A DNA stretch of 64,000 nucleotides, taken from the NCBI GenBank assembly GCA_017431745.1, contig JAFRKK010000003.1:3927-67926 (forward strand), in the 5' to 3' direction. Shown here in pieces: positions 13,071 through 58,458 of this stretch. The notes below the pieces were generated by a model. It saw nothing but the letters and a program-made list of their open reading frames with translations, was not told the DNA's origin and did not search any database. Position 1 is the first letter of the stretch. Each line of letters starts with the position of its first letter. The translations under genes were made by a program, and so were the position numbers. This stretch comes from Candidatus Saccharimonadota bacterium. Its GTDB lineage: Bacteria > Patescibacteriota > Saccharimonadia > Saccharimonadales > Saccharimonadaceae.

Positions 13071-13259
13071 AATAATATAATAGTTATTTCTAAAGCTTGG
13101 ACTTGTTTGCTTGTAATTATTACAACATAAGTCAAGAAAAAATCTCCTTATTCGCCCTTCGGGCTGGGGGAGATTTTTTCATTGTTAAGTTGTAATAATT
13201 ACGCAAACAAATCTGGTCTAAATCTCATTATGCTTTAGAAATAACTATTATATTATTCT
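13069..13259. repeat. 191-bp imperfect palindrome between arcD and gpmI (includes a terminator-like core)
   Basis: Perfect 28-bp outer arms at 13069-13096 and 13232-13259, inner arms TAATTATTACAAC/GTTGTAATAATTA and GAAAAAATCTCC/GGAGATTTTTTC. Confidence 0.92.
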
Positions 13260-13276
13260 TATGTTATAATAGCAGT

Positions 13277-34509: not shown

Positions 34510-34586
34510 TGGTGAGCCGGGAGAGGCTCGAACTCTCGACACCGGGCTTAAAAGGCCCGTGCTCTAACCAACTGAGCTACCGGCCC
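34510..34586 (-). tRNA. tRNA-Lys(TTT)
   Basis: Reverse complement GGGCCGG...CCGGCTCACCA, anticodon arm CGGGC-CT TTT AA-GCCCG. Confidence 0.96.
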
Positions 34587-34595
34587 ACATTGCTG

Positions 34596-34671
34596 TGGTG
34601 GCGCCGACTGGACTTGAACCAGTGACACAAGGCTCTTCAGGCCTCTGCTCTACCAACTGAGCTACAGCGCC
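34596..34671 (-). tRNA. tRNA-Phe(GAA)
   Basis: Reverse complement GGCGCTG...CGGCGCCACCA, anticodon arm GAGGC-CT GAA GA-GCCTT. Confidence 0.96.
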
Positions 34672-34737: not shown

Positions 34738-35922
34738 ATGAATAGAGTGCCATTAGCGGAGAGAATGAGACCGACGAAGCTATCTGAGGTGGTGGGACAG
34801 GATGAAATTATTGGTGAAGGAAAAATTTTGACGGAGATTGTGCGGAAAGGTGAACCGGTAAACTTGATTTTTTGGGGGCCACCGGGGACAGGTAAGACGA
34901 CGCTGGCTCGGATTTTGGCGCGAGAATTTGAAGCAGATTTTGTGGAGATATCGGCGGTGACGGCGGGGAAAAAGAATGTTGAAGAAGTAGTAGAACGAGC
35001 AAAATTAAACTGGAATCTGAAAACACGGACGATTTTGTTTGTGGATGAAATCCATCGGTTTAATAAGGCGCAGCAGGATGCATTTTTGCCACACGTTGAA
35101 TCGGGATTGATTACTTTGATTGGGGCTACAACAGAGAACCCTTCGTTTGAAGTGATTTCGCCGCTGCTTAGCCGTTCACGGGTCGTAGTGGTGTCAGCGC
35201 TATCGAAGGATGCGATTATTGAGGTATTGAAGCGGGCGATTAAAGCAGAAAAAGCTTCGAAGCGAGTATCTAAGAAAGCAATTGATTTGTTAGCGGAGCT
35301 GTCGGGTGGTGATGCGAGGGCGGCATTAGGGGATTTGGAATTAGCTTTGTCACTAGCTAGTAAGGTGGATGAAAAAGTAGTAGAAGAGGCGGCGGGAAAG
35401 AAAATGCCAGGGTACGATAAGAAAGGCGACAACCATTATGACACGATCTCAGCATTTATCAAATCGATGCGTGGTTCGGATGTGGATGCGGCACTTTATT
35501 ATCTTGCTCGGATGGTAGAAGCAGGTGAAGACCCGAAGTTTATCGCACGGAGAATGGTAATTTTTGCTTCAGAAGATATTGGGCTAGCTGGGAATGGAGC
35601 GCTTAGCCTTGCGACGGCGTGTTTTCAAGCGGTGGAAAGAGTGGGGATGCCGGAATCGGGGTTAATGTTGGCGCATTGTGCGGTGGCTCTCGCGCTATCG
35701 AAAAAGTCGCGGCAAACAACGGATGCGTGGTATAAAGCACTTGAAGTGGCGCGTAAATCGCGAGGTGAGCCGGTGCCGACGTGGCTTCGGAACGCGCCGA
35801 CCAAATTAATGAAAGATTTGGGATATGGAAAAGGTCAAAAATGGGAGGCGGGGTTCCATCTCGACAAAAGTTACTTGCCAGAGAGTATTAAGGACGTTGA
35901 AATATGGAAGACAACTAAATAA
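34738..35922 (+). CDS. rarA: Replication-associated recombination protein A (RarA/MgsA)
   Basis: PLAERMRP, WGPPGTGKTTLA, FVDEIHRFNKAQQD, ATTENPSFEV, YDKKGDNHYDTISAFIKS.RGSD. Confidence 0.97.
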   Translation: MNRVPLAERMRPTKLSEVVGQDEIIGEGKILTEIVRKGEPVNLIFWGPPGTGKTTLARILAREFEADFVEISAVTAGKKNVEEVVERAKLNWNLKTRTILFVDEIHRFNKAQQDAFLPHVESGLITLIGATTENPSFEVISPLLSRSRVVVVSALSKDAIIEVLKRAIKAEKASKRVSKKAIDLLAELSGGDARAALGDLELALSLASKVDEKVVEEAAGKKMPGYDKKGDNHYDTISAFIKSMRGSDVDAALYYLARMVEAGEDPKFIARRMVIFASEDIGLAGNGALSLATACFQAVERVGMPESGLMLAHCAVALALSKKSRQTTDAWYKALEVARKSRGEPVPTWLRNAPTKLMKDLGYGKGQKWEAGFHLDKSYLPESIKDVEIWKTTK

Positions 35923-36026
35923 AGCCGTTCGGGACACGGGTCGGCTCGGCCCGTCGTTACGGGCGAGCCGCCCTCTTTCTCGGTCGTAACCTCCGAACGG
36001 TCCCTCAGGCTTTATTTAGTTGTCTT
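35908..36026. repeat. Palindromic mini-element between convergent rarA and the DsbA-like gene
   Basis: Perfect 19-bp arms AAGACAACTAAATAAAGCC/GGCTTTATTTAGTTGTCTT. Core TTCGGGACAC...CGGTCCCTCAGG is shared with other copies. Confidence 0.93.
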
Positions 36027-36774
36027 AGCTATCTAAGCCGGCTTGGAAGTACATTTTGACGTATTCCCAGCCCCAGGAGAGGTCGAAGCCGGAGGAGGTG
36101 TAGTTGTTGAATTTGAAATAAGGCATACCATTGGTGAGTTTGGCGGTTTTTTCGGCGTTCTTTTTAATTTCATTGAGAGGGTCTTGGTTTTTAACACAAT
36201 TGTCAAACTCTTCGCCAAGGCCGATTTGATGTCCGATTTTGATCCAGTAGTCGGGTCCGAGGCTACCCATCTTAGAGAAGGCAGACTTGCCGAGGTCTTT
36301 GAAATAATCATTCCAAATGTTAGTGACGGCGAGATTGTAGTAATCCCAGAATTTGCCTTGTGATTTGGCACAATAAGTGGCGACGGCGGAATAGCGGGAG
36401 TGGATGGGGCTACTTTCGCCAAATTCATAGAGAAAGTCAGAGAGGCGAATTTCGACGAGAATGTCGTTTTCGGCGATATATTTTTGGAATTCGTCTTCGT
36501 GTTCGACGATGGCGTTTTCGAAGGCGACACAGTAAGGGCAAACAAGATCAGAATAAATAACGAAGTAGTTTTTAGCGTTTATGTTGCCGGTGGTCGTTTG
36601 TTCATCCCAAATTTTTTCGGAATTTGAGGGCTCTTTTGGGGTCATACTAATAACAATGGCGGCAATAATAATTGCAATAATTGCAATGATGCCACCGATT
36701 CTAAGAACTTTTTTCACTTTTCTCCTTTTTCTCCTTACTCGTTTGCTTCGCCTTTTTAGCGAGGTATTTTTCAT
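36025..36774 (-). CDS. Membrane-anchored DsbA/thioredoxin-like protein
   Basis: Basic N-terminus plus TM, then YSDLVCPYC (CPYC) and GMPYF cis-Pro-like motif. Confidence 0.8.
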   Translation of the reverse strand: MKNTSLKRRSKRVRRKRRKVKKVLRIGGIIAIIAIIIAAIVISMTPKEPSNSEKIWDEQTTTGNINAKNYFVIYSDLVCPYCVAFENAIVEHEDEFQKYIAENDILVEIRLSDFLYEFGESSPIHSRYSAVATYCAKSQGKFWDYYNLAVTNIWNDYFKDLGKSAFSKMGSLGPDYWIKIGHQIGLGEEFDNCVKNQDPLNEIKKNAEKTAKLTNGMPYFKFNNYTSSGFDLSWGWEYVKMYFQAGLDS

Positions 36775-37342
36775 TTATTATTATAGCATAGGTTTCGACA
36801 CCGAGACGCTTTAAGGATAAGATAGCGATGACGATAGCAAGAATGGTGACGATAGTACTGACAGTGCCGGCGATGGCGAGGCTGCCAGTGCTAAAAATGG
36901 CACCGATAAGAGGAGTGAGTAAGGTGGCGCCGCAAGTGGGGCAACCAGCGCCGAGAGCGATTAGTCCAGTGATAATACCGGCTTTCTCGAGACTTTCGGC
37001 ATTTTGACCCTTTTTTGTGCGCTTTTTGTCCCAGAGGAGAGTAATGAGGCCGATAAGGATTCCTTGGAGTGTGGCGATTAAAAAGATTGGAAGCCAGTCA
37101 AGAAACGGTTGATTAATGCCAAAAATTGCAAGGAAACTGCTCCAGATGATCTGGAGATTTTGCGGGAAACCGAGAGCACCCATGAGCTCAAATTTGCTGG
37201 TACCGCCGGACAAAAGGTTCATGAGCATGCCAAAAAAGATAAAGCTAGGGATTGCCCCGTACCAAAATTTACGTTCTTTGGTGGCGAGCAAGATACCTTT
37301 ACCCGCTAAAACAAATTCGTCGAGCCATTTCCTCCAATTCAT
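36701..37342 (-). CDS. Hypothetical 4-TM membrane protein with a CxxC motif
   Basis: Hydrophobic segments and GAGCPTCGA. 3' end overlaps the start of the DsbA-like gene. Confidence 0.75.
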   Translation of the reverse strand: MNWRKWLDEFVLAGKGILLATKERKFWYGAIPSFIFFGMLMNLLSGGTSKFELMGALGFPQNLQIIWSSFLAIFGINQPFLDWLPIFLIATLQGILIGLITLLWDKKRTKKGQNAESLEKAGIITGLIALGAGCPTCGATLLTPLIGAIFSTGSLAIAGTVSTIVTILAIVIAILSLKRLGVETYAIIINEKYLAKKAKQTSKEKKEKSEKSS

Positions 37343-37494
37343 ATAGAATATATTATCATAAGTTTTTATGGTTTGTCAAGAATTATTTGTTCGGTTTTTG
37401 GGTTTTTACCCCTGTTAAAGTAAAAACATATTAGAACATAAAGATTTTTAAAAATCAATATTGACATTGATTTCGCCTATGCTAAAATAGAGTT

Positions 37495-37620
37495 AAGTTC
37501 GAATCGATCTGACGTTGAGAGAGATTCGAGCTGGGTGGAGAGTATGGAGCTATTTTGGCTAAATATTGTATAACCACCTAGAAATTTGTTTATAAAAGTC
37601 CGTCCTCGCACGGATTTTTA
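37495..37620 (+). ncRNA. Candidate small RNA with its own promoter and terminator
   Basis: TTGACA 37461-37466 and TGCTAAAAT 37480-37488; hairpins 37496-37532 and 37531-37581; terminator-like hairpin 37593-37620. No ORF. Confidence 0.45.
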
Positions 37621-37654
37621 TATTTTTAACGATAAGTATGATATAATAGTTAGT

Positions 37655-38689
37655 ATGAAATTATCCAGAAGAATCGATAAGATTCTGATTTCGGTGATAA
37701 TTGTTACTTTGGGGCTGATTTTTGGGTGTCTTTATAAGGTATATTCGACTGCTACTTATGCGGAGGGAGAGGAAGCGGTTGAAATGACGGGGGCGAAGTT
37801 TGTGACTTTTTATGATGGTGGTAAGAAATTGACGGTGCGAACAGAGGCAGACACGGTGAAAGATGCTTTGGCGCGAGCGGATGTTGTAATTAATGAGGGG
37901 GATATTGTGGATCCGGGATTAGAAACAGAGATAAATGCGGATAATTTTTACATTAATATTTATCGAGCACGGCCAGTGGTAGTACGTGATGGTGCGGTGG
38001 AAAAATATTTGATGTCGGCGAGTTATGACCCTGCGACGGTGGCTAGAGAGGGTGGCTTTACGATTTATGATGGAGATGAAATTGCGCTTGCGATGAATAC
38101 TGAATTCCTAGAAGCAGGGGTGGCGACTGTTTACCAGATTACGCGAAATGGTGGTCGGACAATAACAGTGGATGAGGAAATTGCATTTAATGAAGAGTTT
38201 GTGGAAGATGGAGCTTTGGCGGCGGGGAAAACTGAGGTACGTCAACTAGGCGAAGTGGGATTGATGCGAAGAAGTTATAATGTGAATTTTGTGGATGGAG
38301 TAGAGGTGACCAGGGAGCTGGTTTCGGAGGAAATGGTACGGGCGCCGATGCCGCGAATTACAGCAAGAGGTACGAAGGTGGAAATTGCAGCAGTAGCGGC
38401 GACGGGAACTTGTGCAGATTGGATTCGGGCAGCGGGAGTAGCTGAGGCGGACGTGCAGGCGGCCTTGTATTTGATTAATCATGAGAGTGGTTGTAGGTGG
38501 AATGCGCGGAACGCATCGTCGGGGGCTTACGGAATTCCACAGGCTTTGCCAGGGTCAAAAATGGCTTCGGCGGGGGCGGACTGGGAAACGAACCCGATTA
38601 CGCAGATTAAGTGGATGTCGGGATATGTGTCGCGGTATGGTGGTTGGCAAGGGGCGGTTAATTTCTGGAATGCGCATGGTTGGTACTAA
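37655..38689 (+). CDS. DUF348 + G5 + lytic transglycosylase-like (YabE/Rpf-like) cell-wall protein
   Basis: TM anchor, TVKDALARADV repeats, G5 domain (EVRQLGEVG...RELVSEEMVRAP), C-terminal INHESGCRWNARNASSGAYGIPQALPG. Confidence 0.85.
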   Translation: MKLSRRIDKILISVIIVTLGLIFGCLYKVYSTATYAEGEEAVEMTGAKFVTFYDGGKKLTVRTEADTVKDALARADVVINEGDIVDPGLETEINADNFYINIYRARPVVVRDGAVEKYLMSASYDPATVAREGGFTIYDGDEIALAMNTEFLEAGVATVYQITRNGGRTITVDEEIAFNEEFVEDGALAAGKTEVRQLGEVGLMRRSYNVNFVDGVEVTRELVSEEMVRAPMPRITARGTKVEIAAVAATGTCADWIRAAGVAEADVQAALYLINHESGCRWNARNASSGAYGIPQALPGSKMASAGADWETNPITQIKWMSGYVSRYGGWQGAVNFWNAHGWY

Positions 38690-38693
38690 ACTT

Positions 38694-38775
38694 AAACTCA
38701 CAATACCATCCTTCTCGGACACACTCAAGGCCGTTCGGCCAAGCTTACGGTCCTCGAAGGAGGTATTGTGAGTTT
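38694..38775. repeat. Short palindromic mini-element overlapping the rsmA RBS and start
   Basis: Perfect 14-bp arms AAACTCACAATACC/GGTATTGTGAGTTT. Core CTCGGACACACTCAAGG...AAGCTTACGGTCCTCG closely matches the 46655 copy. Confidence 0.9.
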
Positions 38776-39514
38776 GAATAATAATATCAAGCTAGGGCAG
38801 CATTGGTTGAAAAACCGAGATATCCTAAATGAAATTGCGGCTTTGGCTGGTGATGGAAAGTTATGTGTGGAGATTGGGCCGGGGCTAGGGTTTTTGACAT
38901 CGTCCCTACTTCGACGATTTAAAAATGTAATTGCGGTGGAATATGATGATAGACTGGCTTTGAATTTACCGAAGTCGTTTCCGGGGACTGGATTAGAGGT
39001 GGTGCACGGGGATTTTTTGGAGTATGATTTTGCTGGAGTTGATGCCCCTTATGCGATTGCAGGAAACATTCCATATTATATTACGTCGCCGATAATTGAG
39101 AAGGTACTAAGTTTAGAAGTTTTGCCGGAGCGAGTGGTTTTATTAATTCAGAAGGAAGTTGCGGAGCGCATTTTGTCGGATAAGGAGACGGTTTTGTCGC
39201 TGTTTGTGAAGAATAGGGCTCGAGTTTCAGCAGGGCCGGTAGTAAAGGCGGCTGAATTTACGCCTCCACCGAAGGTTGATTCGCAAGTAATTGTAATGGA
39301 GCCGCATGCGCCAGAAGTATCGGATGAAGTGTTTGATTTGATTCGGAAGGGATTTTTGGCGCCGAGGAAGAAATTAGTGCATAATTTGAGTGGACTAAAA
39401 CCACGAGATGACTTAATGCGGATTCTTGAATCTGTAGGTGTTTCGCCAGATGTTCGGCCAGGGGATTTGCACCTGGAGGATTGGGCTAAACTTTATCAAA
39501 AGATATATTCGTAA
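38768..39514 (+). CDS. rsmA: 16S rRNA adenine dimethyltransferase RsmA/KsgA
   Basis: LGQHWL, VEIGPGLG.LT, AVEYD, GNIPYYITSP, QKEVAERI, FTPPPKVDS. Confidence 0.96.
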   Translation: MSLNNNIKLGQHWLKNRDILNEIAALAGDGKLCVEIGPGLGFLTSSLLRRFKNVIAVEYDDRLALNLPKSFPGTGLEVVHGDFLEYDFAGVDAPYAIAGNIPYYITSPIIEKVLSLEVLPERVVLLIQKEVAERILSDKETVLSLFVKNRARVSAGPVVKAAEFTPPPKVDSQVIVMEPHAPEVSDEVFDLIRKGFLAPRKKLVHNLSGLKPRDDLMRILESVGVSPDVRPGDLHLEDWAKLYQKIYS

Positions 39515-39543
39515 AAAAGTTTAAATGATGATATAATGGGGGT

Positions 39544-40788
39544 ATGTTAGATGTGAAGTTTATCAGAGAAAATCTGGAACTCGTGGAAAAGTCTGCGAAA
39601 GAAAAAGGATACAAAATAAATATTGCTGAACTGTTAGAACTGGATGATAAGCGGAAGGCTGATTTGGCGGAAGTGGAGGAGTTAAGAAAGGCGCGAAACG
39701 AAACAGCGGCAAAGATGAAGGGCGGAAAGCCATCGCCAGAATTAATTGCAGAAGGAAAGCGCATCAAGGAAGAACTATCGGCAAAAGAACAGGCGCTTAC
39801 TTCATTGGAAACAGAGGTAAAAGAAGGTTTGAAAAAAGTACCGAATATTATCTTTGAGGATGTACCACTAGGTGGTGAGGAAGATTCAGTAGAGATTAAA
39901 AAATGGGGCGAAAACCACGAAACCGGAGTAGATCATTTGGATTATGCAGTGAGCCGGGATTGGGTTGATTTTGAACGTGGTGCGAAAGTGGCAGGTGCGA
40001 AGTTTTATTATTTGAAGGGTGGTTTGGCGTTCCTCGAGAACGCTTTGCTTCAATACGGTTTGGCTAAAGTTCAGGAGCATGGTTTTACTTATATGACGGT
40101 GCCAGATATGGTGTCATCGAGAATATTGGAGGGTTGCGGGTTTAATCCACGAAGCTCTGAGCAATCGGATGAGTATTTCATTGAAGGGGAAGATCTCGCG
40201 ATGATCGCGACGGCGGAGATGCCACTAACTGGTTATCACATGGATGAGATTATTGATGAAGATAAACTGCCCCTACTTTATGCTGGATATTCACCGTGTT
40301 TTAGGAAAGAAGCGGGGGCATATGGTAAATATACGCGGGGGCTATTTCGGGTGCATCAGTTTAATAAGCTAGAGATGTATATTTTCTGTTTGCCAGAGAA
40401 ATCGAAGGAGATGCACGAAAAATTGTTAGAAATTGAAGAAGATATTTGGCAAGGTTTGGGAGTGCCGTATCATATAGTGAATATTGCGGCAGGGGACCTT
40501 GGTGCGCCGGCGGCGAAGAAATATGATATGGAATACTGGTCGCCAGTTAATCAGAAATATCAGGAGATTACTTCGTGTTCGAACTGTACAGATTTCCAAG
40601 CGCGGGCAGTGAATTGTCGAGTGCGTCGAAAAGATGGAAGTGTGGAGTTTGTCCACACTTTGAATGGAACAGCGATTCCTTTGGCCAGAGCGCTAGTGGT
40701 AATGTTGGAAAACTTTGCGACTCCGGATGGAAAATTTAAGGTGCCGGAGGTATTGAGACCGTATTTAAATAATAAGGAGGAATTATAA
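39544..40788 (+). CDS. serS: Serine--tRNA ligase
   Basis: MLDVKFIR, IATAE, FRKEAG...RGLFRVHQFNKLE, EITSCSNCTDFQAR, HTLNGTA. Confidence 0.97.
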   Translation: MLDVKFIRENLELVEKSAKEKGYKINIAELLELDDKRKADLAEVEELRKARNETAAKMKGGKPSPELIAEGKRIKEELSAKEQALTSLETEVKEGLKKVPNIIFEDVPLGGEEDSVEIKKWGENHETGVDHLDYAVSRDWVDFERGAKVAGAKFYYLKGGLAFLENALLQYGLAKVQEHGFTYMTVPDMVSSRILEGCGFNPRSSEQSDEYFIEGEDLAMIATAEMPLTGYHMDEIIDEDKLPLLYAGYSPCFRKEAGAYGKYTRGLFRVHQFNKLEMYIFCLPEKSKEMHEKLLEIEEDIWQGLGVPYHIVNIAAGDLGAPAAKKYDMEYWSPVNQKYQEITSCSNCTDFQARAVNCRVRRKDGSVEFVHTLNGTAIPLARALVVMLENFATPDGKFKVPEVLRPYLNNKEEL

Positions 40789-41151
40789 ATGATTGAAAAA
40801 ATCGAAGTCAGCGGTAAGGGATATAAAGTTGAAGAGCCATTTAAAAAATACGTGATTAAACGATTATCGAAGCTGGATCGGTATTTGCCGCGACGAGCGA
40901 AAAAAGATGTATCGGCAAAAGTGATGGTGACAGAAATTGGCAAAGGTAAAACAGAGAAATATGAGATTTCGGCGGCACTTGATGTGAAGGGAGGAAAAGT
41001 TTTAGCAGCGAAAGATGAGTGCTCGAATGTGTTTGCGGGGGTTGACCTCGTAGAGGCAAAGTTGACTGGTCAGATTCGGCGATATAAGCTTGAAATGCAA
41101 CCACATCGTCAGCGGAAAAGCTTGAAAAACCTCTTTATTAAGCGCAAGTAA
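40789..41151 (+). CDS. hpf: Ribosome hibernation factor (HPF/RaiA)
   Basis: IEVSGKG...YVIKRLSKLDRY...AKDECSNVFAGVDLVEAKLTGQIRRYK. Confidence 0.85.
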   Translation: MIEKIEVSGKGYKVEEPFKKYVIKRLSKLDRYLPRRAKKDVSAKVMVTEIGKGKTEKYEISAALDVKGGKVLAAKDECSNVFAGVDLVEAKLTGQIRRYKLEMQPHRQRKSLKNLFIKRK

Positions 41152-41191
41152 TGTGATATAATGGGGTGAATATTTAGGAGTTTTAATTTGT

Positions 41192-43945
41192 ATGGCCAAA
41201 AAAGAAAAAAAGCCAAGTGATAAATTGGCGGATAAGACTGCGCTTACGAAATTTTTGCAGGGCGTGTTTGGTGATGCGCAAAAGCGAGTTTTAAAAAGGC
41301 TTTGGAAAAAGGCGCAAGAAATTACTAAGCTGGAGCCAAAATATGAGAAAATGTCGGACGAGGAGCTAAGGAAGCAGACGGAGATTTTTAAACAAAAAAT
41401 CAGCAGAGCTTTGAAGACGGCACAAGCGGAAGAAGGAAACAGCAAGTCTGGTAAAAAACGTCCGCCAGTAGATGATACGAAGATTTTGAATGAGATTTTG
41501 CCGGATGCTTTTGCAGTGGCACGGGAAGCATCGAAACGGGTTTTGGGCCTGAGGCCATACGACGTACAGTTGATTGGTGGAATGGTATTACATGAGGGCG
41601 CAGTGGCAGAGATGAAGACTGGCGAAGGTAAAACGCTTGTCGCAATGTTGCCAGCATACCTCAATGGTTTGACTGGGCGTGGGGTACATGTGGTGACGGT
41701 GAACGACTATTTGGCACAGCGGGATGCGGGTTGGAATGGGCCAATTTATGATTTTCTAGGTTTGACCGTAGGTGTGATTATCAATGAAGCATCGTTTATT
41801 TATGATGCAGAATATGAAAATGACGAGCATGACGATGAAAGGTTTTTACATTTAAAGCCTTGTACTAGGAAGGAAGCTTACGAAGCAGATATCACTTATG
41901 GGACAAATAATGAATTTGGATTTGACTATTTGCGCGACAACATGACCTCAGAAGTGCAATATTTGCGTCAGCGAGAACTGAATTTTGCAATTGTGGATGA
42001 GGTGGATTCGATTTTGATTGATGAGGCAAGAACACCTCTCATTATTTCGGCGCCGGCGGGAGATAATCCGGAACAGTATTACCAATTCGCGAAGGTAGCA
42101 TCACGGTTGACGCCAGAAGATTACATCTTTGATGAAAAACGGCGTTCGGTGACTTTGACAGATAAGGGAATTGAAAAAGTTCAGAAAATTTTAGGGGTAG
42201 AAAACATTTATTCGACTAAAAATACGCCTTTGGTTTATCATCTTGAGCAAGCGATTCGAGCGGAAGTGGTGTTTAAGCGTGACAAAGATTATGTGGTGAC
42301 AAATTCGGGTGAAGTAATTATCGTAGATGAGCATACCGGGCGGTTGATGCAGGGGCGGCGTTATAACGAGGGGCTACACCAGGCGATTGAGGCAAAGGAA
42401 GGGGTGGCGGTTAAGCAAGAGTCGATGACGCTCGCGACGATTTCGTTCCAGAACTTTTTCCGGTTGTACAAAAAGTTGTCCGGGATGACTGGTACGGCGT
42501 TTACGGAAGCGGAGGAATTTCGGCAGATTTATGCCCTAGAAGTAATTCAGATTCCACCGAATAAGCCGATTGTCCGGGTGGATAAGGATGATTTGATTTA
42601 CAAAACGAAGGCTGCGAAGCTAAAAGCAATTGCGGAAGAAATTAAAAAGTATCATGAAAAAGGTCAGCCGGTGTTGGTGGGTTCGGATTCGATTGCGAAT
42701 AATGAGGAAATTGCAGCTTATTTGGAACAATACGGATTGCCATATGAGATTTTGAACGCGAAAAACAATGAGCGGGAGGCGGCGATTATTGCGAAGGCTG
42801 GAGAAAAGGGTGCGATTACACTTGCTACCAATATGGCTGGACGTGGTACGGATATTAAACTTGGCGAAGGAGTGAAGGATTTAGGTGGCTTGGTAGTGAT
42901 TGGTTCAGCACGGCACGATTCAAGGCGGGTGGATAATCAGCTTCGTGGTCGAGGTGGCCGACAAGGTGACCCGGGGACAACGCAATTCTTTGTAAGCTGT
43001 GAAGATGATTTGATGCGAATTTTCCAGGGCGATAGAGTAAAAATGTTGATGACAAGACTTGGTGTGGATGAGGACATGCCAATTCAGACGCGTTCGATTT
43101 CAAAGACCTTGGAGGCGGCACAGAAACGGATTGAAGGGTTTAACTTTGATTCGCGGAAGAATGTGGTACAGTACGATAACGTGATTAATCGACATCGGCG
43201 AGTGGTTTATGCGATGCGGCGACGGATTTTGATGGGCGATGACATTTATCCGGAGATTAAGCGGTTAATGCGTGAAGAAACTAAGATGTTGACGGAGTTT
43301 TCATCGCGAGTAAATAAAAAATTTGACGCAGAATTTAAGGCGGCATTCCCGACTTTTGATGACGAATTAATTCATGGGATTGGTTTGGTGCGCAAGGAAA
43401 AAGACCGGGAAAAGATGGCACTTGAGGCGGTAGAAGAAGCCTACAGGGTTCAAGAAGAGAAATTTGGCGCAGAAACGATGCGAAAGATTGAACGCGAAGT
43501 TTATCTAAAGGTGCTTGATACTTTGTGGATGCAGCATCTTGAGAATATGCAACATTTGCGTGAGGGGATTCACTGGCGTTCAGTGGGTCAGAGAGATCCT
43601 TTAGTGGAATATCGTTCAGAATCGCAAAAGCTATTTGATGGTTTGCAGAGGAATTTGCGAGAAGAGGTTTTGAAGATTTTGCTGACAATTACTCCGGCGG
43701 AGGCTGCGGCTGATGATGTGACGGACGGTGAGGAATATGAATCTGAACTGACCAAGATGGCAGAGTCACAAACTGAACGAGGGGTGAATGAAATTTCGAA
43801 GGGTGAGAAGAATTTGGATAGTGAATTTAAGAAAAAATCTTCCGGTAAGGCAGTGCCAAAAAGGACGTCTAGTAGGAAATCTGGGTCGAAAGCCAAAAAG
43901 TCGAAAGCTAAGAAGAAAAAGAAGGCTAATCGCAAGAAGAAATAG
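41192..43945 (+). CDS. secA: Protein translocase subunit SecA
   Basis: EMKTGEGKT, VTVNDYLA, IVDEVDSILIDEARTPLIIS, ATNMAGRGTDI, QLRGRGGRQGDPG, QRDPLVEY. Lys-rich tail with no CxC zinc motif. Confidence 0.98.
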   Translation: MAKKEKKPSDKLADKTALTKFLQGVFGDAQKRVLKRLWKKAQEITKLEPKYEKMSDEELRKQTEIFKQKISRALKTAQAEEGNSKSGKKRPPVDDTKILNEILPDAFAVAREASKRVLGLRPYDVQLIGGMVLHEGAVAEMKTGEGKTLVAMLPAYLNGLTGRGVHVVTVNDYLAQRDAGWNGPIYDFLGLTVGVIINEASFIYDAEYENDEHDDERFLHLKPCTRKEAYEADITYGTNNEFGFDYLRDNMTSEVQYLRQRELNFAIVDEVDSILIDEARTPLIISAPAGDNPEQYYQFAKVASRLTPEDYIFDEKRRSVTLTDKGIEKVQKILGVENIYSTKNTPLVYHLEQAIRAEVVFKRDKDYVVTNSGEVIIVDEHTGRLMQGRRYNEGLHQAIEAKEGVAVKQESMTLATISFQNFFRLYKKLSGMTGTAFTEAEEFRQIYALEVIQIPPNKPIVRVDKDDLIYKTKAAKLKAIAEEIKKYHEKGQPVLVGSDSIANNEEIAAYLEQYGLPYEILNAKNNEREAAIIAKAGEKGAITLATNMAGRGTDIKLGEGVKDLGGLVVIGSARHDSRRVDNQLRGRGGRQGDPGTTQFFVSCEDDLMRIFQGDRVKMLMTRLGVDEDMPIQTRSISKTLEAAQKRIEGFNFDSRKNVVQYDNVINRHRRVVYAMRRRILMGDDIYPEIKRLMREETKMLTEFSSRVNKKFDAEFKAAFPTFDDELIHGIGLVRKEKDREKMALEAVEEAYRVQEEKFGAETMRKIEREVYLKVLDTLWMQHLENMQHLREGIHWRSVGQRDPLVEYRSESQKLFDGLQRNLREEVLKILLTITPAEAAADDVTDGEEYESELTKMAESQTERGVNEISKGEKNLDSEFKKKSSGKAVPKRTSSRKSGSKAKKSKAKKKKKANRKKK

Positions 43946-44002
43946 CCCTAAGACTATAATATTATACAATGATTATGTTTATTTGTCAACTCTAGGAGGT
44001 AA

Positions 44003-45274
44003 ATGAAACATTCAGTCGAGGAAATCACACTAAAGAATGGGGCGAAGGGGCTGTTTATTGATATTCCGGGAGCTTCTGTGATGTCGACTCGAATTCAATT
44101 TAGAGCGGGGATGCTTTATGCGAAAAATAAATATGTGTATGAGATTCCACACGTGGTGGAACATTTAGCTTTTGGGGCAAATGCAAAATATCGGGATGAA
44201 CAGGCTTTTGAGGCAGAATTTACTAAAAATGGGGCATATCACAATGCGTGGACTTCGGATATATCGGTGTGTTATGAGACGGAATGTGCGGATTTTGAGT
44301 GGGAAAGAATTATGGAGCTTCAGCAGGTGTCGATTTGCGAGCCGAGATTTAATGAGGAAGAATTAAAGTCAGAGAAGGCTAATGTAAAATCTGAACTTAC
44401 CGGCTACATGAATGATTATTATCGGTTGCTTTGGCCGCGAGTACAGCAGGCGGTGGGTGAAGAGGTGCTTGATTTATCGCAAAGGCGAGAAACGATAGCG
44501 AATATTGACCTAAAGGATATTCGAGAGCATTATCGGAGAACTCATACTGCGAAAAATATGCGGTTCATTATTGCTGGGCGTTTGAAGGGGCGAAAGCACA
44601 AATTGGTGAAAATGTTGGAAGCGTGGAATTTGAAAGAAGGAAAGGAATTTGACATTCCTTTGGTTGAATTGCACTCTTCAGAGGCAGTGTCAATTCGTCG
44701 AAAGGATGCGTCGAATATTACGTTTGGATTTTCGCTAGTGACGCCACGACACTTGGAGCCTTCGGAGGTGTTTGCGATGAATTGTTTGAACCATATTTTG
44801 AACGGAACGACTAATTCGAAGATTTTTGGGGCGGCCAGGAAGCGGGGGTTGGTGTATGGGATGGGCTCCTCAATTGCTTCAAATGCGCACAATTCGTATT
44901 GGGATTTTGACGGGGAAGTAAATATTGAAAATGCAGAGGAGTTGTTTGAGCTTATTCAAACGGAATTAATGAAGACGCTAAATAGCGAGATACTGGATAT
45001 GGATTTTTTGGCGGCAAAATCTTATGCGATGGGTAGATTCCAGATGGGGGCGCAAACGGTGGGACAAATCGCGGATTATTATGCTGACGGATTCTTTACT
45101 AATGGGACGATTGAAAAATATGATAATATGCCAAACCTCATTAAATCGATTGATAAGTTTAAGATGATTGAGTTAGCGCGTGAATTTGCAGGTTCAGGTA
45201 TAAAGGGGTTTGCGGCGGTGTCATCTGTTGAGAAAGCGTTTATTTCTGAATTAGAGAATAGATTGAACTTCTAA
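44003..45274 (+). CDS. M16 family zinc peptidase
   Basis: Inverted zincin motif HVVEH, NAWTS, EELKSEKANVKSE, RKRGLVY. Confidence 0.88.
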   Translation: MKHSVEEITLKNGAKGLFIDIPGASVMSTRIQFRAGMLYAKNKYVYEIPHVVEHLAFGANAKYRDEQAFEAEFTKNGAYHNAWTSDISVCYETECADFEWERIMELQQVSICEPRFNEEELKSEKANVKSELTGYMNDYYRLLWPRVQQAVGEEVLDLSQRRETIANIDLKDIREHYRRTHTAKNMRFIIAGRLKGRKHKLVKMLEAWNLKEGKEFDIPLVELHSSEAVSIRRKDASNITFGFSLVTPRHLEPSEVFAMNCLNHILNGTTNSKIFGAARKRGLVYGMGSSIASNAHNSYWDFDGEVNIENAEELFELIQTELMKTLNSEILDMDFLAAKSYAMGRFQMGAQTVGQIADYYADGFFTNGTIEKYDNMPNLIKSIDKFKMIELAREFAGSGIKGFAAVSSVEKAFISELENRLNF

Positions 45275-45433
45275 TAAATAAATTATAAGTTGATTCACTC
45301 ACGTCAAGTAATTCTTGATGATTTTTTAAACGGAAATTTTCGCGTCTTGCCTACGTCGCGCTGCAAAAATTTCCTAAAGACCACCAAGAATTACTTGGTT
45401 CGTTCAAGACTTACAATTTATTTATTAGAAGTT
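45266..45433. repeat. 168-bp imperfect palindrome spanning both stop codons of the convergent M16 peptidase and murD genes
   Basis: Perfect 19-bp arms at 45266-45284 and 45415-45433; inner arms CAAGTAATTCTTG/CAAGAATTACTTG and GGAAATTTT/AAAATTTCC. Confidence 0.92.
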
Positions 45434-46634
45434 TAAATTGATTCCCTCGGTCGTAGACGTTTTCGAACATGTCGAAAGAGGCGGCGGCGGGGGACATGAC
45501 TATGATAGACGGGGACATGCTTTCGGCTTCGGATTTGGCGGTGCTGATTGCTTCATTGAGCGATTCAGCTAGGATGAATCTGTCGTCTTGATATTTTTTG
45601 GTTAGTTCGTGGCCGGATTCGCCGATGAGGACGATTTTTTTGACTTGGGGAGCCTGCAGAATCTCGTAGATTTCAGGGAGATCTTCGTAATTGGTTTTGT
45701 CGCGACCACCGAGGATAACTACTAGGTTGTCATTTGGGAAGGCGTTGATTGCAACGCGAGTTGAGGATGGATTGGTTGAGAAATTGTCGTCGTAATATTT
45801 AACGCCGTTGATTTCACGGAGGTATTCGAGGCGATGGGGGAGACCTTTGAAGTTTTTGAGACCTTCTATGATGGTGGCTTGATGGTCCTTCAAATATTCA
45901 TCTGGTGATATATTTAAGAGACAGGAAACTGCGGAAATAGCGGCGATAGCGTTGTTTTCATTGTGAACGCCAGGTAGAGTGATAGCGTTTTTTACCTCTG
46001 TTGGGATGGTGAATGGATAGGGGATTTTCTGGGCTTTTGAGGTGTCTGCGATTTTGGTGGTTTCGGGGTTTTCCTTGAAGTAAATGAGGTAATCATCTGG
46101 GGTTTGGTATTTGGTGATATTGGCCTTGGCATTTAGGTAATCAGCGTAGTCTTTATGAATGTTGAGATGATCGGGCTCTAATTGTCCGAGAATGGCGATA
46201 TGAGGAGATTTGGTGACGTCCCAGAGTTGAAAACTAGATAATTCATAGACTACAACAGAGGTAGGTTTGAGCTCATCTAGGATATCAATAGCAGGGTTGC
46301 CGATGTTGCCGACAAGATAGGAATCTTGGCCTTCGGCATCAAGAAGAGCTTTGATAAACGAGCAAGTGGTGCCTTTGCCTTTGGTGGCGGTGACGCCAAT
46401 AATTGGGCAAGGACAGTGGTCAAAAAAGTATTTAGTGAGGCTGGATTCGTTTTTTAGCCCCAGGGGTGGGACGCTGGGGCTTCGCAAAATTATATCATAG
46501 GATGAATAATCCTTGTTTATTATTTCGTTGTAGGTGAAATCTTCAAAAACATCGATTTCAGCGTTAAATTTGTCCTTGAAATATTTTTCGGCAGATTTGC
46601 CTTCTTTGCCGTAACCGAGCAATGCTATTCTCAT
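45411..46634 (-). CDS. murD: UDP-N-acetylmuramoyl-L-alanine--D-glutamate ligase
   Basis: LLGYGKEG, GVTATKGKGTT, GNIG, ELSSFQL, DHLNIH, GLPHRLE, DDNFSTN, SPAAASFDMF...RG. Confidence 0.96.
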   Translation of the reverse strand: MRIALLGYGKEGKSAEKYFKDKFNAEIDVFEDFTYNEIINKDYSSYDIILRSPSVPPLGLKNESSLTKYFFDHCPCPIIGVTATKGKGTTCSFIKALLDAEGQDSYLVGNIGNPAIDILDELKPTSVVVYELSSFQLWDVTKSPHIAILGQLEPDHLNIHKDYADYLNAKANITKYQTPDDYLIYFKENPETTKIADTSKAQKIPYPFTIPTEVKNAITLPGVHNENNAIAAISAVSCLLNISPDEYLKDHQATIIEGLKNFKGLPHRLEYLREINGVKYYDDNFSTNPSSTRVAINAFPNDNLVVILGGRDKTNYEDLPEIYEILQAPQVKKIVLIGESGHELTKKYQDDRFILAESLNEAISTAKSEAESMSPSIIVMSPAAASFDMFENVYDRGNQFKLLINKL

Positions 46635-46654
46635 AAACTCAATTATACCATAGG

Positions 46655-46732
46655 GCGCGAAAAATATCTCCTTCGGACACGCTCAAGGGCGCTCGCCCAA
46701 GCCTACGGTCCTCAGGAGATAATTTTTCGCGC
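46655..46732. repeat. Short palindromic mini-element overlapping the dus stop codon
   Basis: Arms GCGCGAAAAA-TATCTCCT / AGGAGATA-A-TTTTTCGCGC; core TTCGGACACGCTCAAGG...AAGCCTACGGTCCTCAGG. Confidence 0.9.
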
Positions 46733-47638
46733 TTCTGATACGCTGTGGGTTTCCATAAGTTTAGCGCGGAGTTCTTTGGCTCCCGGGAAGTTGTTGATGT
46801 AAATCTTGAAAAAATGCTTCAGAGGCTCGTAAGGAATATGAGAATATTCCTCATATAGGTCTAAGTGCATTTTTAGAAGTTTCATCAGCTCATCGCGGGT
46901 GGGGGTGTGGTCGGTGAAGCAGTAGGGGTTTTGAAAAACACCGCGGCCAATCATGAAGCCGTCTACCTCTGAGTATTTGGTGTGGAGTTCTAGAGCTTGG
47001 GTGCGGTCTTTGATGTCGCCGTTGATTATCAATTTAGTTTCGGGGCTGATTTCGTTGCGTAACTTGATAATTTCAGGGATTAGCTCATAGTGGGCGGGGA
47101 CTTTGCTCATCTCTTTTTTGGTGCGGAGATGAACGGTGAGAGCGGCGGGATGCTCAGTGAGCAAAAGAGGCAACCATTCACGATATTCTTCGGGTTGGCT
47201 CCAGCCGAGGCGGGTTTTGACGGAAACGGGGAGATTAGTGCTACTAGCAGCGTTCCTAAAACATTCTACAGCGAGGTCAGGGGTTTTAATCATGGCAGCG
47301 CCGCCACCAGCTTTGTTGACGTGTTTGTCAGGGCAGCCAAAATTTAAATCTACCCCTGAAAATCCAAGTGACGCAAGCGCCTGGCAAGTTGCCGAAAAAT
47401 GTTCGGGGTTTTTGCCCCAGATTTGAGCGATGATGGGTTTGTCGGAAGGAGCGATTTCGAGGCGTTCCAAAGCGTTTTCGCGGCCCTTTTCAGAGGCGTA
47501 AGATGAGACATTGGTGAATTCAGTAAAAAATAAATCTGGACGACCGGCGTGCGCGATGACCTGACGAAACATAATATCCGTTACACCCTCCATGGGGGCA
47601 AGAATTAGAAAAGGTTTTTTTAGCTCATTCCAAATCAT
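46712..47638 (-). CDS. dus: tRNA-dihydrouridine synthase (Dus family)
   Basis: LAPMEGVTD, FTEF, DLNFGCP, SVKTRLG, VHLRT, NGDI, MIGRG. Start reassigned to ATG 47638. Confidence 0.94.
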   Translation of the reverse strand: MIWNELKKPFLILAPMEGVTDIMFRQVIAHAGRPDLFFTEFTNVSSYASEKGRENALERLEIAPSDKPIIAQIWGKNPEHFSATCQALASLGFSGVDLNFGCPDKHVNKAGGGAAMIKTPDLAVECFRNAASSTNLPVSVKTRLGWSQPEEYREWLPLLLTEHPAALTVHLRTKKEMSKVPAHYELIPEIIKLRNEISPETKLIINGDIKDRTQALELHTKYSEVDGFMIGRGVFQNPYCFTDHTPTRDELMKLLKMHLDLYEEYSHIPYEPLKHFFKIYINNFPGAKELRAKLMETHSVSEARKIIS

Positions 47639-57878: not shown

Positions 57879-58280
57879 ATGTCATTACAATCTACAGATC
57901 AAATCGCTGATTTACTCACTCGTATTCGTAATGCGGTGATGGTTGGCAAAAATGAAATTCTCGTCCCGACTTCTAAATTGAAGGCTGGGGTGGTAGAAGT
58001 ACTTGCGAAAAATGGCTATGTGGCTTCATTTGAAGTTATTGATGGCTCGCCTCGTGGGATGCTTAAAGTTGTGATTAACGAACCAGGGACGGTCGCCAAA
58101 ATTAACGAGATTTCAAAAGTTTCAAAGCCAGGGCGAAGGGTGTATTCGTCGGCTGACGAGTTGCCAGTAGTGAAGTCTGGACGAGGGATGGTAATTGTAT
58201 CTACTTCTAAAGGTTTGATGACTGGACGTGAGGCGAAGAAGAATCGCCTTGGTGGTGAAGTCTTGGTTAAGGTTTGGTAA
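57879..58280 (+). CDS. rpsH: 30S ribosomal protein S8
   Basis: DQIADLLTRIRNA, SKPGRRVY, STSKGLMT...LGGEV. Confidence 0.98.
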   Translation: MSLQSTDQIADLLTRIRNAVMVGKNEILVPTSKLKAGVVEVLAKNGYVASFEVIDGSPRGMLKVVINEPGTVAKINEISKVSKPGRRVYSSADELPVVKSGRGMVIVSTSKGLMTGREAKKNRLGGEVLVKVW

Positions 58281-58458
58281 AAATAGTAAAGTAATTATTT
58301 GCTTTTCTCAGCGTTGAAATACGCGCCAAGATAAAAAATACAACACTCGTCGGATTGTTTCGGAAATTACAGTTTCCTCAACAATCTGGAGAGTTGTATT
58401 TTTTATATGGGCGATTTCAAATGCTTCGAAAAAGCAAATAATTACTTTACTAGATTTT
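58278..58458. repeat. About 180-bp imperfect palindrome directly after rpsH
   Basis: Perfect 23-bp arms at 58284-58306 and 58430-58452; inner arms ATAAAAAATACAAC/GTTGTATTTTTTAT-like; apical TTCGGAAA...TTTCCTCA. Confidence 0.9.

What the first reader, a model, noticed from the sequence alone, without database searches (positions are those of the whole stretch)
35908..46732. Outer arms of the palindromes are site-specific mirror images of neighbouring gene ends
The outer arms differ at every site, yet each pair is perfect or nearly perfect. One arm is often functional host sequence: the last codons of rarA (KTTK-stop) are mirrored at 36008-36026; the RBS and first codons of rsmA are mirrored at 38694-38707; the last codons of dus are mirrored at 46655-46672; the last codons of murD are mirrored at 45266-45284, across the M16 peptidase stop. 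This is not a direct target-site duplication. It suggests inverted duplication of flanking DNA on insertion, or progressive stem extension by template switching (quasi-palindrome correction). The RNA would also sequester the rsmA start or pair gene 3' ends.
Basis: partly seen in the sequence, partly recalled or inferred. Interest (0 to 1): 0.8.

Follow-up and report, generated by a model that had tools for sequence, protein, structure and literature searches.

The report
Mobile hairpins with host-copied stems
Small GC-rich hairpin elements in this rumen Saccharibacteria genome sit at gene ends and inside genes, and the outer part of each long stem is a reverse-complement copy of the neighbouring host sequence, an unusual insertion footprint for selfish DNA.

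Summary
All four palindromes are at the stated coordinates, with perfect or near-perfect arms that overlap the ends of rarA, murD/M16 and dus and the start of rsmA.

The window comes from a Candidatus Nanosyncoccus-like Saccharibacterium of the ruminant gut. The palindromes are copies of several families of short, multi-copy, mobile cores. I found 51 distinct type-2 sites, each with different but complementary flanks.

Related species and near-identical strains have "empty" sites. None of these holds both arms as a terminator. At most they hold a 6-7 bp host hairpin or one arm, so the opposite arm is new, mirrored sequence.

- The arms co-vary between species.
- Cores are found inverted at the same site.
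- About a third of copies lie in frame inside genes (mnmA, dus, pepN), as Rickettsia palindromic elements do.

Best reading: mobile hairpin cores land in small host hairpins, and their stems are built and kept perfect by replication template switching (fold-back copying of the adjacent host sequence).

Each arm is a mosaic of element-borne inner stem, pre-existing host dyad and new mirror. At rsmA and dus the "gene end" is itself partly rewritten by the insertion. The RNA roles are untested, and how the core moves is unknown.

The parts
35908..35926 (.). E1 left arm: the last four rarA codons plus stop (AAGACAACTAAATAA) followed by AGCC
   Evidence: Complementary to 36008-36026 at 19 of 19 positions. 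The KTTK-stop tail is homologous to KSTE-stop in L005 and KSTQ-stop in L007, so it is ancestral host sequence. AGCC is absent from empty sites.
35931..36004 (+). E1 type-1 GC-rich core, closed by GGGAC...GTCCC, with a long bulged hairpin and a short second hairpin
   Evidence: nhmmer finds copies at window 3406-3470 and 21363-21425 (reverse strand) and in 7 or more related loci. Contig depth over the core is 20-35 times that of its flanks. Fold.
36008..36026 (.). E1 right arm: GGCTTTATTT (host: spacer plus the dsbA-like Lys-stop) followed by AGTTGTCTT (new mirror of the rarA tail)
   Evidence: The L006 empty site reads ATAAGGCTTTATTTGC. Nine of 14 relatives have the two stop codons abutting or overlapping and lack AGTTGTCTT.
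38694..38707 (.). E2 left arm, mirror of the rsmA start region
   Evidence: 14 of 14 complementary. Absent from all empty sites. Its outer AAACTCA is absent from the orthologous element in L126.
38715..38755 (+). E2 type-2 core: TCGGAC-ACACTCAAGG-CCGTTCGG-CCAAGCTTACG-GTCC-TC
   Evidence: 51 distinct sites carry this core. Loose contig ends start at 38715/38717 and at 38758/38763.
38756..38775 (+). E2 inner stem and right arm, carrying the rsmA SD (GGAGG 38758-38762), the GTG start (38768) and the next five bases
   Evidence: The fold pairs the SD and the start codon. In empty alleles rsmA starts at an ATG that overlaps the G5 stop.
45263..45436 (.). E3: AT-rich nested palindrome (type 3) with conserved boxes beside the outer arms. 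The arms hold the M16 and murD tails.
   Evidence: Orthologous in L003, L015, L022, L030, L041, L086 and L087. Other relatives have a 29-35 nt antiparallel gene overlap instead. Outer arms co-vary: 6 of 22 pairs changed on both sides.
46655..46671 (.). E4 left arm, mirror of the dus tail, lying beside the murD -10 box
   Evidence: Absent from the empty alleles (X8; L081-85; L004, L006, L008, L014 and L021).
46673..46713 (+). E4 type-2 core, antisense to the dus-murD transcription direction
   Evidence: L025 has an orthologous copy with co-varying arms.
46715..46732 (-). E4 right arm: the last six dus codons (ARKIIS). The stop codon lies at 46712-46714.
   Evidence: Only GCGCG is shared with strain-level empty alleles.
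3385..3491 (+). Type-1 element with its own 21-nt arms, in frame inside an M1 aminopeptidase ORF (2868-5399)
21332..21459 (-). Type-1 element (core on the reverse strand) with 16+14-nt perfect arms, in frame inside a methyltransferase ORF (20636-21820)
46833..46850 (.). Small host hairpin GGAATAT-GAGA-ATATTCC inside dus. It is the empty form of an insertion hotspot that is filled in six other species.
   Evidence: L001, L003, L004, L012, L022 and L041 are filled
13056..13272 (.). Long AT-rich nested palindrome of the same general kind as E3
58279..58457 (.). Long AT-rich nested palindrome with box A/B-like modules

Best explanation
The palindromes are copies of several families of small mobile hairpin elements. 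Each has a conserved GC-rich core of about 40-75 nt and a short, strand-asymmetric inner stem. They are comparable to MITEs and to Rickettsia palindromic elements.

They settle where a compact genome tolerates them. These places are junctions where neighbouring genes abut or overlap, and variable loops of proteins, where they are read through in frame. The preferred landing point is the loop of a small pre-existing host hairpin.

The long, site-specific outer stems do not travel with the element and are not ready-made terminators. Replication template switching makes them. A nascent strand that has copied the core folds back on the core stem and copies the host sequence it has just made, adding its reverse complement on the far side. 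It then returns to the template.

Repeats of this process lengthen the stem, restore perfect pairing after mutation (seen as co-variation of the two arms) and sometimes invert the core.

The effects on genes are by-products that selection filters. These include new stop codons, new C-terminal tails, a new SD and start for rsmA inside the stem, and possibly termination or translational coupling.

**Shown:**
- many copies
- presence/absence polymorphism
- mirror segments that are missing from empty sites
- stepwise extension
- co-variation of arms
- core inversion
- in-frame copies inside genes

**Inferred:**
- the fold-back synthesis itself: I put about 0.65 on the arms being made this way
- that the core also moves by copy-choice and not by a transposase (about 0.4)
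For: **Many copies, each with its own arms.**
- Type 2: 2 copies in the window, 4 in the species loci and 48 metagenome contigs, giving 51 distinct sites.
- Type 1: 3 copies in the window and at least 7 elsewhere.
- Contig depth rises 5-35 fold exactly over the cores.
- Flanks of the 48 type-2 sites that have at least 45 nt of flank on both sides are complementary: median arm 24 nt, score 15.5. At random positions the median is 0 and the 95th percentile 2.
- Beyond 15 nt from the core the flanks share no sequence across sites.

**Empty alleles exist.**
- J2: strains with 95-97% identical flanks (L093-L100, X12, X13).
- J4: X8 and L081-85.
- Most related species.

**Mirror pieces missing from empty sites.**
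- J1.
- L023 (12 nt of the left host flank mirrored), L035 and the dus hotspot.

**Stepwise extension.**
- L126 against the window at J2.
- L133 against L115.

**Concerted change of arms.**
- J3: 97.7% of cells paired. 6 of 22 pairs changed on both sides, including A-U to U-A and A-U to G-C. 0 of 500 shuffles reached the score.
- J4: window against L025.

**Core inversion at one site.**
- mnmA site 2, L009 against L017 and L010.
- L124 against L115.

**A DNA-level element, not an RNA gene.**
- E2 is sense and E4 antisense to transcription.
- 16 of 51 type-2 copies lie in stop-free frames of at least 150 codons, 13 in one orientation and 3 in the other. This fits 3 open frames on one strand of the core against 1 on the other.
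- mnmA stays intact with one or two inserts. pepN and a methyltransferase in the window also carry inserts.

**The same junctions are reused by different core families.** J1 holds type 1 in the window and type 4 in strains with 97-99% identical flanks. L041 and L029 each hold a different, unrelated palindrome there, which I call type 5 and type 3.

**Known process.** Template switching is documented to create hairpins, homogenise arms, expand inverted repeats and invert spacers (PMC8794818, PMC8604942, PMC13100816).
Against: - No event was observed directly. Everything rests on comparing alleles, and recombination between strains shuffles alleles, so the closest empty allele need not be the ancestor.
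- At J2 and J4 most of both arms is absent from strain-level empty alleles, so the direction of copying cannot be told there.
- The J2 element with its arms is 97.6% identical between lineages whose flanking genes are only 73-76% identical. That points to selection on the structure or to transfer, not to neutral turnover.
- The strict pyrimidine/purine asymmetry beside the core, and the conserved A and T at +/-12-14, suggest recognition by a dedicated protein. This would favour an enzyme-driven insertion.
- An automated test of arm against empty site gave mostly no call, because the sequence is AT-rich and the species are diverged.
Confidence: 0.58

Rival explanations
1. These are ordinary MITEs moved in trans by a transposase that recognises the conserved inner stem and core and targets pre-existing palindromes. 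The outer arms are simply the arms of the target palindrome, later tidied by quasi-palindrome correction.
For: - The termini are conserved and strand-asymmetric, with fixed A/T positions at +/-12-14.
- Small host hairpins or quasi-palindromes exist at several empty sites: J1 AAATAA-GGCT-TTATTT, dus GGAATAT-GAGA-ATATTCC, the J3 overlap TTAAATTTTTAA, and L080.
- The same sites are reused by different families.
Against: - The pre-existing stems are only 6-7 bp, while the arms are 14-30 nt. The extra arm sequence is missing from empty sites.
- There is no target-site duplication.
- No autonomous partner with the same ends was seen in 2 Mb of related DNA (crude search).
- Neither core was found in viral contigs: the type-2 scan found nothing and the 11 type-1 hits lacked the rest of the core.
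Confidence: 0.22
2. The hairpins are selected RNA structures, such as bidirectional terminators, mRNA-stabilising 3' hairpins, RNase III sites or translational-coupling switches. The arms match gene ends because selection for a long stem in a crowded genome forces the stem to use coding sequence.
For: - The predicted structures are very stable.
- They sit at gene ends.
- A and T tracts flank about 14 bp of stem in 37-40 of 51 sites.
- Arms co-vary.
- The J2 hairpin is far better conserved than its flanking genes, and it hides the rsmA SD and start 4 nt after the upstream stop.
Against: - Cores occur in both orientations relative to transcription.
- A third of the type-2 copies are in frame inside ORFs.
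- Near-identical strains lack them or carry a different element at the same junction.
- None is called as an intrinsic terminator, and E1, E2 and E4 have no T-run after the stem.
- Double transversions in paired positions are hard to reach by stepwise selection.
- There is no match to any Rfam family.
Confidence: 0.13
3. The inverted flank copies arise from double-strand-break repair through hairpin-capped ends that are opened off-centre. This is like the P nucleotides of V(D)J joining or the footprints left by hAT transposon excision. The core is captured as filler DNA.
For: An inverted copy of the sequence next to a junction is the signature of hairpin-end opening (from established knowledge). 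There is no direct duplication.
Against: - The mirrors here reach 9-15 nt or more and grow stepwise.
- The same defined cores recur at 51 sites, which filler capture does not predict.
- No hairpin-forming enzyme was identified.
Confidence: 0.05
4. The palindromes are assembly artefacts at inverted repeats.
For: Short-read assemblers can misjoin at inverted repeats. Logan contigs break inside the cores.
Against: - The same structures recur in independent assemblies from many studies, in NCBI MAGs and in ENA scaffolds.
- The arms are shorter than typical final k-mers.
- The arms carry point differences and bulges.
- ORFs stay open through in-gene copies.
Confidence: 0.01

Closest known systems
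Rickettsia palindromic elements (RPEs)
   Same: Both are short palindromic repeats of a reduced, host-dependent bacterium. Both are found between genes and, unusually often, in frame inside unrelated protein-coding genes that stay open (PMC10969869). Here 16 of 51 type-2 copies are inside ORFs, as are copies in mnmA, dus, pepN and a methyltransferase.
   Different: RPEs are about 150 bp and are described as families with a conserved encoded peptide. Here only 40-75 nt are conserved and the outer 10-20 nt of each stem is unique to the site and copied from the host. The phylum differs. Sequence relatedness to RPEs was not tested.
Bacterial MITEs (Correia, ERIC, RUP, BOX and others)
   Same: Small, non-coding, multi-copy elements with terminal inverted symmetry. 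They are polymorphic between strains and can supply promoters, terminators or gene fusions (PMC10969869).
   Different: MITEs are defined by terminal inverted repeats shared with a parent IS and by direct target-site duplications. Here there is no direct duplication, no parent IS was found, and the flank is copied in inverted orientation.
Template-switch mutations that create and maintain hairpins
   Same: Both involve reverse-complement copying of adjacent sequence along the nascent or complementary strand. Both produce perfect stems in one event, multi-base compensatory changes, arm homogenisation, repeat expansion and spacer inversion (PMC8794818, PMC8604942, PMC13100816). All of these footprints are seen here.
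   Different: The published cases are isolated events in RNA genes, coding DNA or promoters. Here the process is tied systematically to a mobile core, so every copy of a repeat family grows a host-derived stem.
REP/BIME and REPIN elements, and IS1397 insertion into REP loops (from my own knowledge)
   Same: Hairpin-forming intergenic repeats at gene ends. IS1397 shows that hairpin loops can be specific insertion targets.
   Different: REPs have a conserved sequence throughout, are extragenic, and are linked to RAYT transposases. Here copies occur inside genes, the arms are site-specific, and no RAYT was looked for or seen.
Coding palindromes in Nematomorpha mitochondrial genes
   Same: Long perfect inverted repeats embedded in functional protein-coding genes, with both arms translated (PMC6649704).
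   Different: Those have no shared mobile core, and both arms encode conserved protein regions. Here the arms flank a repeated core and lie in variable loops or at gene ends.
GC clusters of yeast mitochondria (from my own knowledge)
   Same: GC-rich, hairpin-forming mobile elements in an AT-rich compact genome.
   Different: These are reported with short direct target duplications, not inverted flank copies. They occur in organelles, not bacteria.

Membership tests
MITE | Small non-coding element present in many copies | tested here: met
   Elements are 80-220 nt. There are 51 type-2 sites and at least 10 type-1 sites.
MITE | Conserved terminal inverted repeats | tested here: inconclusive
   An 8-nt pyrimidine-rich/purine-rich inner stem and A/T positions at +/-12-14 are conserved, but only loosely. 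The outermost stem is not conserved at all.
MITE | Direct target-site duplication | tested here: not met
   No direct repeats flank E1-E4 or the 51 sites. The flanks are inverted copies instead.
MITE | Parent IS with the same ends and a transposase | tested here: inconclusive
   A crude search for end motifs 0.3-6 kb apart in 2 Mb found nothing convincing. Whole genomes were not searched.
Rickettsia palindromic elements | Palindromic repeat inserted in frame into unrelated ORFs that stay open | tested here: met
   mnmA carries 1-2 inserts and stays intact. The dus hotspot is filled in six species. pepN and a methyltransferase in the window carry copies. 16 of 51 type-2 sites are inside ORFs.
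Rickettsia palindromic elements | Sequence homology to one of the RPE families, or a conserved encoded peptide | not tested
   No RPE sequences were compared. Rfam gave no match.
Intrinsic terminator | Short GC-rich stem with a 3-8 nt loop, followed directly by a T-run | tested here: not met
   The scan calls none of the four elements. Its only hit there is an internal sub-hairpin of the type-1 core. The inner parts are 37-120 nt long, and no T-run follows E1, E2 or E4.
Intrinsic terminator | Present as such in orthologous loci (both arms in empty sites) | tested here: not met
   Empty sites have abutting or overlapping genes, or at most a 6-7 bp hairpin.
Template-switch mutation footprint | The derived allele holds a reverse-complement copy of adjacent sequence that the ancestral or empty allele lacks | tested here: met
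   Seen at J1 (AGTTGTCTT and AGCC), at L023 (12 nt), at L035, in the dus loop, in L126 against the window, and in L133 against L115.
Template-switch mutation footprint | Multi-base compensatory change of both arms, and spacer inversion | tested here: met
   J3 has 6 of 22 pairs changed on both sides, and 0 of 500 shuffles reach the score. The J4 arms of the window and L025 differ in concert. The core is inverted in L009 and in L124.
REP/REPIN | Conserved REP sequence, extragenic only, associated RAYT | tested here: not met
   Copies occur inside ORFs and the arms are not conserved. RAYT was not searched for.
Known structured RNA (Rfam) | Match to a curated covariance model at its gathering score | tested here: not met
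   Only tRNAs reach their gathering scores in the window. Around E1 and E2 there are only weak generic hairpin hits, the best 27.8 bits against a gathering score of 56.8.

The most novel reading that the evidence does not exclude
A class of transposase-free "hairpin parasites". A 40-75 nt GC-rich core would spread purely by replication copy-choice: a nascent strand jumps into a donor copy and back. It would then build its own long stem from whatever host sequence lies next to it by fold-back synthesis. The element's ends would therefore be rewritten at every site. In the process it would remodel overlapping gene ends, start sites and protein loops across Saccharibacteria.
Probability: 0.3. Interest if true: 0.8.

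Novelty: new variant of a known kind. Interest (0 to 1): 0.62.

Why it matters
- **Gene boundaries.** Saccharibacteria have tiny, tightly packed genomes in which neighbouring genes often overlap. These elements pull overlapping genes apart. They write new stop codons, C-terminal tails and start sites, and they add peptide segments to enzymes. They are therefore a real source of variation in gene structure between strains that are otherwise 97-99% identical.
- **Mechanism.** The elements offer many natural replicates of stem creation and repair by template switching, a process proposed to explain how RNA hairpins arise and keep pairing. It could be measured directly in this system.
- **Practical consequences.**
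  - The cores break short-read assemblies.
  - They can mislead gene callers about gene starts and ends.
  - Arm co-variation that looks like selection on RNA structure may come from the mutation process alone. This is a caution for covariation-based RNA discovery.

Tried and rejected
- **Rfam.** At gathering score the window holds only tRNAs. E-value scans around E1 and E2 gave only weak, both-strand, generic hairpin hits (plastid psbA 3'UTR, miRNA precursors). I rejected these as family membership.
- **Viral contigs.** The type-2 core had no hit. The type-1 17-mer had 11 hits, all in GC-rich coding DNA without the rest of the core, so they are chance matches.
- **RNA evidence.** Two metatranscriptome runs hold only the core in other contexts, and give no ends or joints over E2. 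This is uninformative.
- **Autonomous partner.** A regular-expression search for end motifs 0.3-6 kb apart found nothing usable.
- **Automated arm-against-empty-site scoring.** Across 31 polymorphic hairpins the result was mostly "neither", because the sequence is AT-rich and the species diverged. I relied on manual alignments of the clearest sites instead.
- **X8 joint 35907->36029.** I first read this as an empty J1. It is more likely the alternative allele seen in L089-L097, because the joint is reported with its intervening letters "not known". X7 shows a comparable joint with 142 letters between the two sides.
- **Mismatch-type bias in arms.** I hoped it would reveal an RNA strand, but the TC/TC internal loop confounds it.
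- **DNA uptake sequences.** I considered this idea from my own knowledge and dropped it, because the copy number per genome is too low.

Full report
**What is there**

The window is 43% GC and comes from a Candidatus Nanosyncoccus-like member of the Saccharibacteria (TM7) from the ruminant gut. SecA is 73-95% identical to that of 80 such genomes. All four palindromes are at the stated coordinates:

| Element | Arms | Match |
|---|---|---|
| E1 | 35908-35926 / 36008-36026 | 19 of 19 |
| E2 | 38694-38707 / 38762-38775 | 14 of 14 |
| E3 | 45263-45290 / 45409-45436 | 28 nt, 93% |
| E4 | 46655-46671 / 46715-46732 | 17 bp with one bulge |

E1, E2 and E4 fold 6.6-9.9 standard deviations below shuffled sequence on either strand. 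The window holds seven hairpins of this kind, against 0-3 in shuffles. The arms overlap the rarA tail, the rsmA ribosome-binding site (Shine-Dalgarno, SD) and start, the M16 and murD tails, and the dus tail. No direct repeats flank any of them.

**The inner parts are repeat families**

- E2 and E4 share a type-2 core: TCGGAC-AC[A/G]CTCAAGG-(GC hairpin)-CCAAGC[C/T]TACG-GTCC-TC.
- E1 shares a type-1 core with window 3385-3491 and 21332-21459, the latter on the reverse strand.
- E3 belongs with other long AT-rich nested palindromes (13056-13272, 58279-58457) that have conserved boxes beside the outer arms.

The cores recur at other places in related species and in 48 rumen metagenome contigs. In public rumen runs the contig depth rises 5-35 fold exactly over the cores, and contigs with other flanks join at the core edges.

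I found 51 distinct type-2 sites. At the 48 with at least 45 nt of flank on both sides, the flanks are complementary. The median arm is 24 nt and the median score 15.5. At random positions in the same contigs the median is 0 and the 95th percentile 2.

Sequence conservation falls off outward from the core:
- The 8 nt next to the core are 87% pyrimidine on the left and 26% on the right.
- A at -14..-12 and T at +12..+14 are common (up to 40 of 51).
- Positions 9-11 and everything beyond 15 carry no information.

The outer stem is therefore truly site-specific.

**Empty sites**

I anchored each junction on its flanking genes in the 80 species loci and in 20 near-strain contigs, which I fetched through protein clusters.

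*J1 (rarA > < dsbA-like).* Nine of 14 relatives have the two stops abutting or overlapping.
- The rarA tail KTTK-stop has homologues in L005 (KSTE-stop) and L007 (KSTQ-stop), so the outer left arm is host sequence.
- L006 reads ATAAGGCTTTATTTGC, so GGCTTTATTT of the right arm is also host: a spacer plus the Lys-stop of the convergent gene.
- The ancestor thus had a small hairpin, AAATAA-GGCT-TTATTT.
- The new pieces are AGCC, the core, and AGTTGTCTT, which mirrors the rarA codons.
- Strains with 97-99% identical flanks carry a different core at this junction. It has its own 25-nt perfect arms and a shortened rarA tail, IWD-stop.

*J2 (G5 > rsmA >).*
- In more than 30 relatives, and in strains with 95-97% identical flanks, rsmA starts at an ATG that overlaps the G5 stop.
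- The filled allele brings both arms, an SD, a GTG start and a new N-terminus.
- An orthologous copy in a more distant species (L126) has the same SD and GTGAGTT but lacks the outer mirror. The window's AAACTCA is therefore a later copy of rsmA codons 1-3.

*J3 (M16 > < murD).*
- Many relatives have a 29-35 nt antiparallel overlap around a quasi-palindrome.
- Seven other loci (six related species and the near strain L087) share the element.

*J4 (murD < dus <).*
- Empty alleles have an ATGA overlap, with the murD -10 box inside the dus tail.
- L025 has an orthologous element.
- Against strain-level empty alleles only GCGCG of the arm is shared.

**More filled/empty pairs**

A scan of 1.65 Mb found 105 such hairpins, many of them polymorphic between species.
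- In L023, 12 nt of the left host flank reappear mirrored on the right.
- In L035 the right host flank (TTGTCAAG) is mirrored on the left.
- Inside dus, the window's small hairpin GGAATAT-GAGA-ATATTCC (46833-46850) is the empty form of a hotspot that is filled in six species. There the host stem becomes the outermost stem and the loop gains a mirrored partner.
- L133 and L115 share one flank, but L133 has an extra 14-nt mirror of it.

**Concerted change and inversion**

- Across eight J3 orthologues, 97.7% of arm cells pair.
- Six of 22 pairs changed on both sides, including A-U to U-A and A-U to G-C. None of 500 shuffles reached the covariation score, and slid registers collapse.
- The right arm encodes the murD tail (KLLI[A/S/D/N][N/K][L/F]), and the non-coding left arm follows it.
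- The J4 arms of the window and L025 differ at several positions, yet each pair matches.
- At one mnmA site the core is inverted in L009 relative to L017 and L010. L124 is inverted relative to L115.

**DNA-level elements, not RNA genes or terminators**

- E2 is sense and E4 antisense to transcription.
- 16 of 51 type-2 copies lie in stop-free frames of at least 150 codons, 13 in one orientation and 3 in the other. This matches three open frames on one strand of the core and one on the other.
- mnmA stays open with one or two inserts.
- Two of the window's three type-1 copies lie in frame inside an M1 aminopeptidase and a methyltransferase.
- The terminator scan calls none of the four elements, and Rfam has no family for them.

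**Mechanism**

The footprints are mirror copies contiguous with an existing stem, stepwise growth, multi-base compensatory change and spacer inversion. These are the footprints described for replication template switching (PMC8794818, PMC8604942, PMC13100816).

The simplest account is as follows:
1. A nascent strand copies the core.
2. It folds back on the core stem and copies the host sequence it has just made.
3. It returns to the template, helped by microhomology such as AAATAA/TTATTT at J1.

Whether the core itself arrives by copy-choice or by an unseen transposase is open. The strand asymmetry and the fixed A/T positions argue for some specific recognition.

Effects on genes look secondary. 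One plausible, untested case is rsmA: its SD and start sit in a stem that begins 4 nt after the upstream stop codon. A terminating ribosome would melt that stem and so keep the translational coupling that the overlapping start used to provide.

**Comparison with known systems**

- The behaviour matches Rickettsia palindromic elements in the in-frame insertions, and MITEs in size and copy number (PMC10969869).
- The defining direct target duplication of MITEs is absent, and the ends are rebuilt from host sequence at each site.
- I found no description of such elements in Saccharibacteria or Patescibacteria in the searchable literature.
- I therefore rate it a new variant of a known kind.

Noticed in passing
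window 3385-3491 and 21332-21459: Two type-1 palindromic elements lie in frame inside long ORFs. One is in an M1-family aminopeptidase (2868-5399), between its N-terminal and catalytic domains. The other is in a methyltransferase (20636-21820), just after the SAM-binding motif.
   Followed up: partly
window 46635-46654; L004, L006, L008, L014, L021 junctions: In relatives the last dus codons (..ATA ATA..) double as the -10 box (TGNTATAAT) of murD, and the two genes overlap by ATGA. In the window the -10 box TATAAT ends 9 nt before the murD ATG, so the murD mRNA may be leaderless or nearly so.
   Followed up: no
L089-L097 (J1), about locus positions 2325-2438 in L091: Strains with 97-99% identical flanks carry a different palindrome at the rarA/dsbA junction. 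It is AT-rich, has 25-nt perfect arms, and shortens rarA to end in IWD-stop. This is whole-allele replacement at one junction.
   Followed up: partly
L081-L086, between M16 and murD: A three-gene cassette (a MazE-like gene, an ABC ATPase and an ABC permease) is inserted at or inside the J3 palindrome. The element is truncated in L081-85 and intact, with an extra partial left arm, in L086. A fragment of the old murD tail is left beside it.
   Followed up: no
L087, L088, L091, L097-L099 (serS): In some near strains serS is called as a 588-591 aa protein with an N-terminal PemK-toxin Pfam hit fused to seryl-tRNA synthetase. This may be a true fusion or a gene-calling merge.
   Followed up: no
L017 7152-7218, L009 and L010 (mnmA): One variable loop of MnmA, between GHYAR and DENKDQTYF, holds a type-2 element in L017, a type-1-like element in L009 and nothing in L010. 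A second site nearer the C-terminus holds a type-1 element in all three loci, inverted in L009.
   Followed up: yes
L101, L120, L125, L131, L138, L145 (metagenome contigs): Some type-2 elements are nested inside another repeat with ends like GGGTCCTG(T/G)(C/T)CG ... CGGCCACCCG. This suggests that one hairpin family inserts into another.
   Followed up: no
window 51321-51382: An 18-nt-arm hairpin with a 26-nt spacer and no GC-rich core overlaps the 3' end of the peptide chain release factor gene (50289-51401).
   Followed up: no
window 35961-35983 (inside the type-1 core): The long GC hairpin of the type-1 core is followed by TCTTTCTC, and the simple scan calls it terminator-like on the + strand. 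Other copies have TAATTCTC here.
   Followed up: no
window 34417-34671 and 646-898: Two clusters of three tRNA genes each. The first lies just upstream of rarA.
   Followed up: no
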